From NCBI GenBank assembly GCA_009914755.4, contig CP086569.2, forward strand, positions 10,240,001 through 10,304,000: a stretch of DNA of 64,000 nt, written 5' to 3'. The position numbers were made by a program, and so were the translations under genes. Below the pieces are notes generated by a model. It was not told where the DNA came from. It saw nothing but the letters and a program-made list of their open reading frames with translations, and did no database searches. Positions 6,553 to 11,250 of this stretch are shown here, one piece after another; position 1 is the first letter of the stretch, and the number at the start of each line of letters is the position of its first letter. The DNA comes from the human T2T-CHM13v2.0 reference genome, Homo sapiens.

Positions 6553-7162
6553 TAGAAATACATACAGACATGTAGTATACACTATTAAAATACATAATGC
6601 ATAAATTACATATATATGCAATACATGTATATTAATTATAAAATACACAGATACATATATTTTATGTTCATCAATACTTATATTTATAAATTAGTTAAAT
6701 AGTTATGTGGTTTATACATATATTAAATTATAAGATATTAAATTGTAAATATAAGTTATACTTTTGTATCACATGTAAATTTCATATTACTTGATGGGCA
6801 ATAATAAATATTACATGGTCCATACTTCAAGAGTTCCATATGATACTTAGGAATAAATAATTCTAACTGTGGTTAAAATAGTAAAATTAAATACTAGAGG
6901 GAAATTAGAGGAAAGTTCTATACCATAAAAAATCACCTTCATACTCAAAATCATTATCTGAATATTACTTATGCCTTTAGCCAAGTAATCTTAGGCAAAG
7001 CAAAACTTATACAGTCATATGAAATGACTGTTTGTATCATCTCCTCTGCCACTACATTTGTTGAAGCCATCACCATTTGTTTGGTCTCTCTGCTTGATTC
7101 TGATAGCTACTTGCCTCTCACAGTTTGTTCTCCCAGTAGCCAGAACTACACTCAGAGTAAAA
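6553..7162 (+). repeat. Direct repeat copy A (about 610 bp, AT-rich) immediately upstream of the old L1
   Basis: agaaatacatacagacatgtagtatac... through ...ctcccagtagccagaactacactcagagtaaaa. Its paralogue sits at 10598-11250. Confidence 0.8.
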
Positions 7163-10100
7163 GTACTTATTCTAAAACTGACTACGTAATTGGAAGTAAA
7201 ACACTCCTCAGCAAATGCAAAAGAACAGAAATCATAACAAACAGTCTCTCAGGACACAGTGCAGTCCTCAGGATTAAAAAAGTCACTAAAAGCTGCACAA
7301 CTACATGGAAACTGAACAACCTGCTGCTGAAGGTCTACTGGGTAAATAATGAAATGAATAAAGAAATTCTTTGAAACCGATGAGAACAAAGACACAACAT
7401 ACCAGAATCTCTGAGAAACATTTAAAGCAGGGTTTTGAGGGAAATTTATACCACTTAATATCCACAAGAGAAAGTAGGAAAGATCTAAAATTAGCACACT
7501 AACATCAAAACTGAAAGAACTAGAGAACAAGAAAAGCAAGAGCAAACAAATTCAAAAGCTAGCAGAAGACAAGAAATAACTAAGATAAGAGAAGAACTGA
7601 AGGAGACAGAGACACAAAAAACCCTTCAAGAAAATCAATGAATCCAGGAGCTGGTTTTTCAGAAACATCAACAAAATAGATAGACCACTGGCCAGAGTAA
7701 TAAAGAAGAAAAGAGAGAAGAATCAAATAGACACAATAAAAAATGATAAAGGAGAGATCACCTCTGATCCCATAGAAATACAAACAACCATCAGAGAATA
7801 CTATAAACACCTCTACCAAAATACAGTAGAAAATCTAGAAGAAATGGATAAATTCCTGGATGCACACACCCGCCCAATTTTAAACCAGGAAGAAGTCGAA
7901 TCCCTGAATAGACCAATAACAAGTTCTGAAATTGAGGCAGTAATTCATAACCTATAAAACAAATAAACAAAAAAATCCAGGACTAGATGGATTCATAGAC
8001 AAATTCCAGCAGACATACAAAGAGTAGCTGGTAGCATTCCTTCTGAAATTATTCCAAACAATAGAAAAAGAGAGAATCCTCCTGAACTCGTTTTATGAGG
8101 CCAGAATCATCCTGATATCCAAACCTGGCAGAGACACAGCAAAAAAAGAGAAAATTTCAGGCCAATATCCCTGATGAACATTGATGCAAAAATCCTCAAT
8201 GAAATACTGGCAAACCAAATCCAGCAGCACATCAAAAAATGTATCCACCACGATCAAGTCAGGTTCATACCTGGATGCAAGGCTGATTCAACATGTGCAA
8301 ATCAATAAATGCAATCCATCACATAGACAGAACCAATGACAAAAACCACATGATTATCTCAATAGATCCAGAAAACCCCTTCAACAAAATTCAACATCCC
8401 TTCATGATAAAAACTCAATAAAGTAGGTATTGATAGAACATATTTCAAAATAATAAGACCTACTTATGACAAACCCACAGTCAATGTCATACTGAATGGC
8501 TGAACCTGGAAGCTTTCTTTCCCTCTGAAAATCTGCACAAGACAATGATGCCCCCTCTCTCACCACTCCTATTCACCATAGTATTGGAAGTTCTGACCAG
8601 GGCAATCAGGCAATTGAAAGAAATAAAGGGTATTGAAGTAGGAAAAGAGGAAGTCAAATTGTCTCTGTTTGCAGATTACAAGATTGTATATTTAGAAAAC
8701 CCCACTGTCTCAGCTCAAAATCTCCTTAAGCTGATAAGCAACTTCAGCAAAGTCTCAAGATACAAAATCAATGTGCAAAAATCACAAGCATTCCTATACA
8801 CCAATAGCAAACAGCGAGCCAAATCATGAGTGAACTCACATACACAATTGCTACAAAGAGAATAAAATACCTAGGAATATAACTTACAAGGGATGTAAAG
8901 GACCTTTTCAAGGAGAACTACAAAACACTGCTGAAGGAAATCAGAGAGGACACAAATACATGGAAAAACATTCCATGTTCATTATAGGAAGAATCAATAT
9001 TTTGAAAATGGCCATCCTGCCCAAAGTAATTTATAGATTCAATGCTATCCCCATTAAAGGTATGATTGACTTTCTTCACAGAATTGTTAAAAACTATATT
9101 AAACTTCATATGGAGCCAAAAAAGAGCTGGCATAGCCAAGACAATCCTAAACAAAAAGAAGAAAGCTGTAGGCATCATGCTACCTGTCTTCAAACTGTAA
9201 CAACACAAGGCTACAATAAGCAAAACAGCATGGTACTGGTACCAAAACAGATATATAGACCAATGAAACAGAACATAAGTCTCTGACATAATACCACGCC
9301 TCTACAACCATGTGATCTTTGGCAAATCTAACAGAAACAAGCAATGGGGAAAGGATTTCCTATTTAATAAATGGTATTTGGAGAACTGGCTAGCCATATG
9401 CAGAAAACTGAAACTGGACCCCTTCCTTACACCTTATACAAAAATTAACTCAAGATGGATTAAAGACTTAAACATAACACCTAAAACCATAAAAACCCTA
9501 GAAGAAAACCTAGATGATACCATTCAGCACGTAGGCATCAACAAACACTTCATGTCTAAAACACCAAAAGCAATGGCAACAAAAGCCAAAATTGACAAAT
9601 GGGACCTAAGTAAACTAAAGAGCTTCTGACAGCAAAAGAAACTATCATTAGAGTGAACAGGCAACCTACAGAATGGGAGAACATTTTTGTAATCTATCCA
9701 TCTAACAAAGGACCAATATCCACAATCTACAAGGAACTTAATCAAATTTACGAGAAAAAAATAAAACCACCCATCAAAAAGTGAGCCAATGATATGAACA
9801 GACACTTCTCAAAAGGAGACATTTATGCAGCCAACAAACATGAAAAAAAGTTCATCATCCCTGATCATTAGATAAATGCAAATCAAAACCACAATGAGAT
9901 ACCATCTCATGCCATTTAGAATGGTGATCATTAAAAAGTCAGGAAACAACAGATGCTGGAGACGACTGGAGAAATAAGAATGCTTTTACACTGTTGGTGG
10001 TAGTGTAAATTAGTTCAACCATTGCGGAATACAGTCTGGTGATTCCTCAAGGATCTAAAACTAGAAATACCATTTGACCAGGCAATCCCTTTACGGGTTA

Positions 10101-10598
10101 TATACCCAAAGGATTATAAATCATTCCACTATAAAGACACATGCAAACTTATGTTTATTGAGGGATTGTTCACAATAGCAAAGACTTGGAACCAACCCAA
10201 ATGTCCATCAATGATAGACGTGATAAAGAAAATGTGACACATATACACTATGGAATACTAAGCAGCCATAGAAAAGGATGAGTTTATGTCCTTTGCAGGG
10301 ACATGGGTGAAGCTGGAAAGCATCATTCTCAGCAAACTAACACAAGGACAGGAAGCCAAACATGGCATGTTCTTATTCATAAGTTGGAGTTGAACAATGA
10401 GAACACATGGAGGGGAACATCATACACCGGGGCTTGTCGGTGGGTGGAGGGTTAGAGGAGGTATAGTATTAGAAGAAATACCTAATATATGTGATGGGTT
10501 GATGGGTGCAGCAAACCACCATAACACATGTATACCTATGTAACAAAACTGCACGTTCTGCACATGTACCCCAGAACTTAAAGTATATACAAAAAAGA
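7163..10598 (+). mobile_element. Old LINE-1 element, 5'-truncated (ORF2 3' two-thirds plus 3' UTR), heavily mutated
   Basis: The ORF track fragments (7024..7374, 8545..8829, 8960..9286, 9312..9629) align to L1 ORF2 by homology with the intact L1 in this window ([28 protein letters not shown], [42 protein letters not shown]). It ends with ..cacatgtaccccagaacttaaagtatatacaaaaaag. Confidence 0.9.
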
Positions 10599-11250
10599 AA
10601 TACATATTTATATATAGACATATACTATACATATATTAAAATATATATAATGCACAATATACATGTATTAAATACATATATTGCACAAAGTTCATCTATA
10701 GGTAATACATATATAATTATAAAATATGTGGATGCATATATTGTATATGTTTAGGAATACTTATATTTATAAATTAGTTATATAGCTTATATGATTTATA
10801 CATATATTAAATTATAAGATATTAACTTAAAAGTATAAATTATAGTTTTCTATCACATGTAAATTCCATATTACTTGATAGACAGTAATAAATTTTACAT
10901 TTTATATACTTCATGAGTTCCATATTAACACTTAGGCATAAATAATTGTAACTCTGGTTAAAAGAGTGAAATAAGATACTAGAGGGAATTTAGAGGAAAG
11001 TTCTAAACAAAGATCACTTACATACCCAACATCGTTATCTGAATATTATTTATGCCCTCAGCCAAGTAACTTTAGGCAAAGCACAACTTATACAGTCACA
11101 TGAAATGACTGGGAGTATCACTTTCTCTGCCGTTACGTTTGTTGAAGCATCATCATTTGTTTGGTCTCTCTGCTTGAACCTGATACTCACTTGCAGCTTA
11201 CAGTTTGTTCTCCCTGTAGCCAGAATTATACTCTGCGTAAAACCAAAAGG
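10598..11250 (+). repeat. Direct repeat copy B (about 650 bp) immediately downstream of the old L1, paralogous to 6553-7162
   Basis: agaaatacatatttatatatagacatatac... through ...ctccctgtagccagaattatactctgcgtaaaaccaaaagg, about 85-90% identical to copy A by eye. Confidence 0.8.

What the first reader, a model, noticed from the sequence alone, without database searches (positions are those of the whole stretch)
6553..11250. 5'-truncated old L1 bounded by an unusually long (about 610 bp) direct repeat
The 3.4-kb L1 remnant (7163-10598) is flanked, exactly at its two junctions, by paralogous AT-rich segments. Copy A is 6553-7162, ending ..cagagtaaaa|L1. Copy B is 10598-11250, starting L1 poly-A|agaaatacat.. 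and continuing ..gcgtaaaaccaaaagg past the point where A stops. A canonical L1 TSD is 7-20 bp. A 610-bp flanking duplication implies one of three things: an extremely long TSD from widely staggered nicks, insertion into a pre-existing tandem duplication exactly at its junction, or an L1-associated duplication or gene-conversion event. By eye, A/B divergence (about 10-15%) is of the same order as the L1's divergence from young L1. That fits the duplication being created at the time of insertion.
Basis: seen in the sequence. Interest (0 to 1): 0.5.

Follow-up and report, generated by a model that had tools for sequence, protein, structure and literature searches.

The report
L1 insertion with 610-bp target duplication
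An old, 5'-truncated L1 retrotransposon is flanked by a roughly 610-bp direct repeat that has the same age as the L1 and meets it exactly at both ends, so it is most likely a rare, very long target-site duplication made when the L1 inserted, a kind of event so far documented mainly in cultured cells and tumours.

Summary
Copy A (6554-7162, 609 bp) and copy B (10596-11242, 647 bp) are collinear. They are 85.4% identical (K2P 0.163, 95% CI 0.131-0.201). The repeat occurs nowhere else in the window.

Homology begins right after the L1's short A-tail and ends at the L1's truncated 5' end. The last 40 bp inside the repeat match 35/40; the first 40 bp outside match 9/40.

The insert (7163-10590, plus an A5 tail) is one uninterrupted L1 ORF2/3'UTR fragment. 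The target reads TATT|AGAAAT, which I recognise from memory as a TT|AGAA variant of the L1 endonuclease site.

I fetched 120 L1 copies from contaminant contigs to date the L1. Its own branch is K2P 0.081 (private changes at least 7.0%, difference from consensus at most 9.0%). Half the A-B distance is 0.082. The duplication and the insertion are therefore the same age.

Best reading (about 0.78): a single target-primed reverse-transcription event whose second-strand break lay about 610 bp downstream. This gave a giant TSD, equivalent to a small tandem duplication with the L1 at its junction.

This kind of event is known from HeLa and NER-deficient cells and from cancers. Here it is a fixed germline example.

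No orthologous empty site could be retrieved, so a pre-existing tandem duplication is not formally excluded. Interest is moderate.

The parts
6552..6557 (+). Inferred first-strand (bottom-strand) nick site. The top strand reads TT|AGAA, with the cut between 6553 and 6554.
   Evidence: Read directly from the sequence. TTAAAA and its single-transition variants (including TTAGAA) occupy only 0.6% of positions in the reconstructed target. That these variants are L1 endonuclease target variants rests on my recollection of Jurka 1997, not on a tool result.
6554..7162 (+). Copy A, the 5' copy of the long target-site duplication (609 bp, 27% GC). Its first ~100 bp are TA-rich low-complexity sequence.
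   Evidence: Collinear with B at 85.4% identity. It ends exactly where the L1 sequence begins.
7163..10590 (+). 5'-truncated L1 (L1a). It runs from about nt 2,575-2,595 of a ~6.05-kb full-length element (inside ORF2, 5' of the RT domain) to the 3' UTR end. It is heavily decayed, with 53 stop codons in one reading frame.
   Evidence: A single collinear HSP against full-length L1s at 20195-26251 and 46858-40676. Matches RVT_1 and human ORF2p residues 662-749, E = 4e-41. The 5' end GTACTTATTC aligns to GCACTTATTC in related copies.
10591..10595 (+). Residual poly-A tail (5 A). The next A, at 10596, is shared with copy A and is counted in the TSD.
   Evidence: Related old L1 copies end ...CTTAAAGTATAAT followed by A-runs of similar short length.
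10596..11242 (+). Copy B, the 3' copy of the long target-site duplication (647 bp). It carries ~38 extra bases in the TA-rich part.
   Evidence: Homology to A stops at 11242 (..GTAAAA). The sequence from 11243 onward (CCAAAAGG...) is unique flank.
11242..11243 (+). Inferred position of the second-strand (top-strand) break in the pre-insertion site (GTAAAA|CCAAAAGG). It lies ~609 bp downstream of the first nick.
   Evidence: Inferred from the end of A/B homology. There is no endonuclease-like motif on the top strand here.

Best explanation
One L1 retrotransposition event by target-primed reverse transcription created both the insert and the repeat.

Proposed steps (all inferred):
1. ORF2p nicked the bottom strand at the site that reads TATT|AGAAAT on the top strand.
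2. The A-tail of an L1 RNA primed cDNA synthesis there.
3. Reverse transcription stopped, or was resolved, inside ORF2, which left a 5'-truncated copy.
4. The top strand was broken about 609 bp downstream (after ...GTAAAA) instead of the usual 7-20 bp.
5. Fill-in of the two long single-stranded stretches copied the 609-bp AT-rich target on both sides of the L1.

The product is a giant TSD, which is the same thing as a small tandem duplication with a polyadenylated L1 at its junction.

Shown by sequence: the architecture, the exact junctions, the endonuclease-like site, the A-tail and the equal age of the repeat and the L1.

Not resolved: whether the distal break was a distant nick on the same duplex, or a pre-existing break or replication intermediate (possibly on the sister chromatid) captured by the cDNA. 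The sequence cannot tell these apart.

The event dates to roughly the time of early catarrhine primates. This is an inference from ~8% neutral decay per lineage and general knowledge of primate substitution rates.
For: 1. Layout: unique flank - A - L1 (5'-truncated, complete 3' end, A-tail) - B - unique flank, with A and B collinear at 85.4% identity.
2. All four edges coincide. A and B both start at AGAAATACAT, A directly after TATT and B directly after the A-tail. Both end at GTAAAA, followed in A by the L1 5' end and in B by unique flank. Matches are 35/40 just inside the repeat and 9/40 just outside.
3. The hexamer at the 3' junction is TT|AGAA. Such TTAAAA-like hexamers make up only 0.6% of local positions.
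4. The L1 ends at the normal L1 3' terminus with an A-run like those of other old copies.
5. Ages match. Half the A-B K2P distance is 0.082 (CI 0.065-0.100). The L1a terminal branch has median 0.081 over 122 three-point estimates (range 0.069-0.114). Strictly private substitutions are 7.0% and the difference from the consensus of related copies is 9.0%.
6. Mismatches between A and B are evenly spread, 6-10 per 50 columns, so gene conversion has not distorted the date.
7. A/B is single-copy elsewhere, so it is not an interspersed repeat.
8. The two other L1s in the window have ordinary 14-18 bp TSDs, so the method of reading TSDs works here.
9. Precedent in the literature:
   - TSDs over 100 bp occur in under 10% of HeLa events.
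   - TSDs range from 5 bp to 5.3 kb (median 1,495 bp) in NER-deficient cells (PMC5223499).
   - Extremely long TSDs are associated with 5'-truncated inserts (PMC2912911).
   - 1-10 kb tandem duplications with L1 at the junction are 'regarded as large TSDs' (bioRxiv 10.1101/2024.12.14.628481).
   - An L1-mediated tandem duplication model has been published (PMC7058536).
Against: - No empty orthologous site was seen, so the single-copy pre-insertion state is inferred rather than observed.
- The A-tail is only 5-6 A. It abuts an A-run at the end of copy A (..GTAAAA). A very short conventional TSD (AAAA) could therefore be hidden there, which is what insertion at the junction of a pre-existing tandem duplication would look like.
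- The endonuclease-like hexamer is a one-off match in 73% A+T sequence.
- There is no recognisable motif at the inferred second-strand break.
- The age match has wide error (the CI of the half-distance is 0.065-0.100). It cannot exclude a duplication that arose a few million years before the L1.
Confidence: 0.78

Rival explanations
1. A ~610-bp tandem duplication already existed, and the L1 happened to insert exactly at its junction by ordinary TPRT. Its TSD is very short and hidden in the A-run.
For: The reconstructed junction of such a duplication would read ...GAGTAAAA|AGAAAT..., which is A-rich and a plausible endonuclease target. The 5-6 A after the L1 could be A-tail plus a 4-bp AAAA TSD. 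Short TSDs are relatively common for 5'-truncated L1 (PMC2912911).
Against: - It needs an insertion within +/-1 bp of one particular position in a rare structure.
- It predicts an A-B distance greater than twice the L1's own decay, but the two are equal (0.163 vs 2 x 0.081). The duplication would have had to arise just before the insertion.
- No recognisable non-A TSD flanks the L1.
Confidence: 0.08
2. A DNA-repair or replication error (end joining, template switching, or endonuclease-independent capture of L1 cDNA or DNA at a break) produced a tandem duplication. An L1 fragment was inserted as filler at its junction, without ORF2p nicking of this site.
For: Tandem duplications with inserted filler DNA are a known repair outcome, according to the abstract of PMC2671141 (the paper itself was not read). 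The A-tail is very short. There is no motif at the distal break. The age match fits this scenario equally well.
Against: - The filler ends precisely at the natural L1 3' terminus plus an A-run, and it abuts a TT|AGAA site.
- From established knowledge, endonuclease-independent insertions are typically 3'-truncated, lack A-tails and lack the target motif.
- The L1 piece is a single sense-oriented collinear segment, as expected for a cDNA.
Confidence: 0.09
3. The duplication arose after the L1 insertion, by later duplication or gene conversion of one flank, or A and B are terminal repeats of another element (LTR-like) that happens to enclose an L1.
For: The layout of direct repeats of a few hundred bp flanking a 3.4-kb interior superficially resembles an LTR element.
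Against: - A later origin predicts A-B divergence below twice the L1's decay, and this is not seen.
- There are no conversion tracts.
- A and B do not begin with TG or end with CA.
- The interior is L1 from the first to the last base, with no other sequence.
- No other A/B copy exists in the window or in the fetched contigs.
- A precise placement of a flank copy at both L1 ends has no known mechanism.
Confidence: 0.03

Closest known systems
Large (>100 bp to kb) target-site duplications of engineered L1 insertions in cultured human cells (Gilbert 2002/2005 and Symer 2002, as cited in PMC5223499; Servant et al. 2017, PMC5223499)
   Same: A polyadenylated, usually 5'-truncated L1 flanked by a direct duplication of hundreds of bp to kb of target DNA, with an endonuclease-type site at the 3' junction. 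The size here (609 bp) lies inside the reported range: 5 bp-5.3 kb in NER-deficient cells, 2 bp-1.6 kb in complemented cells, and over 100 bp in under 10% of HeLa events.
   Different: Those are de novo somatic events of marked elements in transformed or repair-deficient cells. This is an endogenous element that went through the germline, was fixed, and has decayed for tens of millions of years.
L1-mediated tandem duplications in cancer genomes (PMC7058536; bioRxiv 10.1101/2024.12.14.628481)
   Same: A tandem duplication with a polyadenylated L1 insert at the junction and an endonuclease motif at the 3' breakpoint. It is explicitly described as equivalent to a large TSD.
   Different: The cancer cases range from 1-10 kb up to 22.6 Mb, and they are attributed to break-induced replication or capture of a sister-chromatid break. 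Here the duplication is only 0.6 kb and germline, and the sub-mechanism cannot be read from the sequence.
Canonical L1 insertion with a 7-20 bp TSD (for example the two full-length L1s in this window)
   Same: The same hallmarks: a complete 3' end, an A-tail, a TT|A-rich target, and a direct repeat that starts right after the A-tail and ends at the L1 5' end.
   Different: The TSD is about 40 times longer than the 14-16 bp mode (PMC2912911). Genome surveys such as that one looked only at 5-30 bp TSDs and would have scored this element as having no TSD or a short one.
HERV-K (HML-2) insertions with long TSDs (PMC5488345)
   Same: A retroelement flanked by an atypically long duplication of target DNA.
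   Different: That is an LTR element with integrase-mediated insertion, an unrelated mechanism. I saw only the title and the start of the abstract in search listings and did not read the paper.

Membership tests
L1 insertion by endonuclease-dependent TPRT | The insert is L1 sequence that reaches the natural 3' end of the element | tested here: met
   A single collinear match to full-length L1s up to ...CTTAAAGTATA. The ORF2p/RVT_1 match is.
L1 insertion by endonuclease-dependent TPRT | A 3' poly-A tail | tested here: met
   An A5-6 run at 10591-10596. It is short, but comparable to the tails of other old L1 copies retrieved.
L1 insertion by endonuclease-dependent TPRT | A TT|AAAA-type target at the 3' junction | tested here: met
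   TATT|AGAAAT at 6550-6559. Such hexamers are 0.6% of local positions. This is a single instance, so it is supportive only.
L1 insertion by endonuclease-dependent TPRT | A direct repeat of target DNA that abuts both ends of the insert (TSD) | tested here: met
   A and B abut the L1 5' end and the A-tail exactly. The length is 609 bp rather than 7-20 bp.
L1 insertion by endonuclease-dependent TPRT | An empty orthologous or allelic site with one copy of the TSD sequence | not testable with these tools
   A 22-mer shared by A and B has no hit in metagenome, prokaryote-genome or viral contigs. The local ORFs are absent from the protein collection. No primate genomes are available.
Long-TSD / L1-mediated tandem duplication class | The duplication is created in the same event as the insertion (same age) | tested here: met
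   Half the A-B K2P distance is 0.082 (0.065-0.100). The L1a own branch is 0.081 (0.069-0.114), with private substitutions of 7.0-9.0%.
Pre-existing tandem duplication hit by an L1 | The repeat is older than the insert, and a normal TSD lies inside the repeat junction | tested here: not met
   The repeat shows no excess age. No non-A TSD is present, although a 4-bp AAAA TSD cannot be excluded.
LTR retrotransposon (terminal repeats enclosing an interior) | TG...CA repeat termini, a PBS/PPT and a gag-pol interior, a 4-6 bp TSD, and other family copies | tested here: not met
   The repeats start AGAAAT and end GTAAAA. The interior is entirely L1. No other copies exist.
L1 3' or 5' transduction | Extra unique sequence between the L1 and a second A-tail (3'), or upstream of a full-length 5' end (5') | tested here: not met
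   L1a is 5'-truncated. B is followed by unique flank without an A-tail, and it is homologous to the upstream flank rather than to a foreign locus. By contrast, L1b in this window does show a 35-bp 3' transduction.

The most novel reading that the evidence does not exclude
This is a fixed germline L1 insertion whose second-strand break lay ~0.6 kb from the first nick. It would show that the 'giant TSD / L1-mediated tandem duplication' outcome seen in repair-deficient cells and tumours also happens in the primate germline and survives.

If such cases are systematically missed (TSD surveys cap at ~30 bp), L1 may be an unrecognised source of small tandem duplications. The AT-rich, easily melted target may also point to what permits the distant break.
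Probability: 0.75. Interest if true: 0.45.

Novelty: new member of a known kind. Interest (0 to 1): 0.38.

Why it matters
Long TSDs are documented for engineered L1s in HeLa and NER-deficient cells and for somatic L1 events in cancers. The genome survey I could read restricted TSD searches to 5-30 bp (PMC2912911), and I found no report of a fixed germline L1 with a TSD of several hundred bp in the searchable library.

A dated natural example has three uses:
- It shows that the aberrant second-strand step occurs in the germline.
- It gives a concrete template (L1 with A-tail, flanked by a diverged direct repeat over 100 bp) for a genome-wide scan that would measure how often this happens.
- It bears on whether L1 contributes to small tandem duplications, including possible exon or regulatory duplications.

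It does not change the accepted mechanism of retrotransposition.

Tried and rejected
1. Orthologue hunt.
   - An exact look-up of ten ORFs spanning the flanks and junctions in the 15-billion-protein collection found none. I therefore did not spend a homology search or contig look-ups on this route.
   - A 22-mer identical in A and B had no hit in metagenome, GTDB-genome or viral contigs.
2. Idea that the repeat unit extends into the L1 tail. The left unique flank ends in a sequence that looked L1-3'-end-like (18/40 ungapped matches). A local alignment against the L1 tail scored 11.5 against 9.7 +/- 1.4 for shuffles, and 56 of 500 shuffles scored as high. I rejected this as chance in A-rich sequence.
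3. Using the two young full-length L1s in the window as an age reference. This gives a 0.135 branch for L1a, but it mixes subfamily change with decay. I replaced it with 120 L1 copies fished from contaminant contigs.
4. LTR-element, transduction and NAHR-between-L1s models. The junction sequences do not fit any of them: the D flank is not L1, there are no TG..CA ends, and there is no second A-tail.
5. Gene-conversion tracts between A and B. None were found; the index of dispersion of mismatches is 0.25.
6. Translating the whole L1 as one protein for a PDB search failed because of 53 stop codons. I used a 94-aa ORF instead.
7. Literature searches for germline L1s with TSDs of several hundred bp found only cell-culture and cancer cases.
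Full report
**Observation**

The region reads: unique flank U (to 6553), copy A (6554-7162), L1 fragment (7163-10590), A-run (10591-10595), copy B (10596-11242), unique flank D (from 11243).

The repeat finder reports six collinear blocks with a start-to-start spacing of 4080-4085 bp and 82-89% identity. A global alignment with the refined edges gives:
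- 603 aligned columns and 85.4% identity;
- 48 transitions and 40 transversions;
- K2P 0.163, bootstrap 95% CI 0.131-0.201;
- 11 gap events, most of them in the TA-rich low-complexity first ~100 bp of A, where B is ~38 bp longer.

The non-repetitive 500 bp has only 4 gap events and 85.5% identity. The local alignment score is 375, against 18.6 +/- 2.9 for shuffled sequence. There is no third copy of A/B, U or D in the 64-kb window or in 265 kb of fetched primate-derived contigs.

**The insert**

Positions 7165-10596 align as a single HSP to two much younger full-length L1s in the window. These lie at 20195-26251 (+) and 46858-40676 (-), and the identities are 84.7% and 83.4%.

A 94-aa ORF in the fragment matches Pfam RVT_1. 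It also matches residues 662-749 of the solved human L1 ORF2 protein at E = 4e-41.

The fragment starts about 2.6 kb into a 6.05-kb element. Related copies read ...CATCGCACTTATTCTAAAA where L1a reads ...TAAAA|GTACTTATTCTAAAA. The L1 therefore begins at 7163, with no filler and no meaningful microhomology.

The fragment ends at the natural L1 terminus (...CCCAGAACTTAAAGTATA..), followed by a short A-run like those of other old copies.

**Junction anatomy**

Both copies begin with AGAAATACAT. In A this follows TATT; in B it follows the A-tail. The inferred target therefore reads TT|AGAA on the top strand. I recognise this as a single-transition variant of the TT|AAAA endonuclease site; that rests on my knowledge of Jurka 1997, not on a tool result. 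Such hexamers occupy 0.6% of positions in the reconstructed target.

Both copies end with GTAAAA. In A the L1 5' end follows; in B unique DNA follows. Ungapped identity is 35/40 just inside the repeat and 9/40 just outside.

This four-way coincidence is the definition of a target-site duplication. Only the length (609 bp) is unusual. The two other L1s in the window have ordinary 14-18 bp TSDs.

**Timing**

That mixes subfamily evolution with decay.

I instead scanned metagenome contigs for a 23-mer of the L1a 3' UTR. This returned 120 L1-bearing contaminant contigs, plus two more from prokaryote assemblies. Against a pile-up of the related copies:
- L1a differs from the majority base at 9.0% of sites (an upper bound, because it includes subfamily differences);
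- L1a carries strictly private alleles at 7.0% of sites (a lower bound).

Three-point distance estimates over 122 pairs of related long copies give an L1a terminal branch with median K2P 0.081, range 0.069-0.114. Half the A-B distance is 0.082 (0.065-0.100). Repeat and insert are therefore the same age within error.

A/B mismatches are evenly spread, 6-10 per 50 columns, so conversion has not reset the clock.

About 8% decay per lineage implies an event some tens of millions of years old. This is an inference from generally used primate neutral rates.

**Mechanism**

The most economical account is a single TPRT event:
1. A bottom-strand nick at TT|AGAA.
2. cDNA priming on the A-tail.
3. Premature resolution inside ORF2.
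4. A top-strand break ~609 bp downstream.
5. Fill-in that duplicated the intervening AT-rich (27% GC) segment.

The architecture, junctions, motif, tail and age match are shown by the sequence. The steps themselves are inferred.

The sequence cannot tell what made the distal break. Three possibilities have been proposed:
- a distant nick on the same duplex;
- a pre-existing break or replication intermediate;
- capture of a sister-chromatid end, as proposed for tumours (PMC7058536; bioRxiv 10.1101/2024.12.14.628481).

**Rivals**

(a) Insertion at the junction of an older tandem duplication. The A-run could hide a 4-bp AAAA TSD, so sequence alone does not exclude this. However, it needs a hit on one specific base pair of a rare structure, and it needs a duplication that arose essentially at the same time as the insertion.

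(b) A repair or replication error with L1 filler and no endonuclease involvement. This fits the age match. It does not explain why the filler ends exactly at the L1 terminus with an A-run against a TT|AGAA site.

(c) Later duplication, conversion or an LTR-like element. This is contradicted by the ages, the termini, the all-L1 interior and the single-copy status of A/B.

An apparent similarity of the left flank to an L1 tail would have suggested a larger repeat unit. It is not significant: 56 of 500 shuffles scored as high.

**Comparison with known cases**

- TSDs over 100 bp occur in under 10% of HeLa events. They dominate in NER-deficient cells, where the range is 5 bp-5.3 kb and the median 1,495 bp (PMC5223499).
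- Extremely long TSDs were noted specifically with 5'-truncated inserts (PMC2912911).
- 1-10 kb tandem duplications with polyadenylated L1 at the junction are 'regarded as large TSDs' in cancers and L1-induced clones.
- A 22.6-Mb example with a published model exists.

The kind of event is therefore known. What is less documented is a fixed germline instance. The genome survey I could read restricted itself to 5-30 bp TSDs, and my literature searches found no germline case of this size. The library is incomplete, so this is not proof of absence.

**Limits**

The decisive test is an L1-free orthologue with one copy of the segment. I could not run it, because no primate genomes are reachable with these tools.

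The L1 subfamily was not named, because no Dfam or Repbase library is available. The age estimate rests on a consensus improvised from contaminant contigs.

**Verdict**

This is a new member of a known kind, a germline L1 insertion with a ~0.6-kb TSD. Interest is moderate.

Noticed in passing
window 20196-26304: A full-length young L1 (about 20214-26248, + strand). It has a canonical 18-bp TSD, AAAAAAAAGTAGCCTATT (20196-20213 and ~26287-26304). It also carries a 35-bp 3' transduction (26249-26283) that ends in a second A-tail (26284-26294).
   Followed up: partly
window 40665-46857: A second full-length young L1 on the minus strand (about 40676-46841). It has an imperfect ~14-16 bp TSD (AAAAAAGCCTAGGGCC vs AAATAAGTCTAGGGAC). 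It is 94.7% identical to the L1 at 20991-26251 over 5.3 kb, inverted relative to it, and ~14.4 kb away. The pair is a possible substrate for inversion by homologous recombination.
   Followed up: partly
window 5520-5790 and 12520-12970: Alu-like repeats in opposite orientation bracket the locus (153-nt arms, 75% complementary, 6.8 kb apart). The left one is followed by a GAAA/GGAA-type microsatellite at ~5780-5890.
   Followed up: no
window 11639-11736 and 15155-15249: A 98-bp segment of the right flank recurs 3.5 kb downstream at 84.7% identity. It is probably a fragment of an unannotated interspersed repeat.
   Followed up: no
window 52107-52911: Another L1 ORF2 fragment (~0.8 kb, 82% identical to L1a positions 9377-10193). 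Its age and boundaries were not examined.
   Followed up: no
The hits include 'marine' and 'human oral' assemblies. It also hit two short contigs in Gordonia and Legionella genome assemblies. This illustrates host-DNA contamination in these collections. L010 and L026 are nearly the same L1 copy (branches of 0.013 and 0.019).
   Followed up: no
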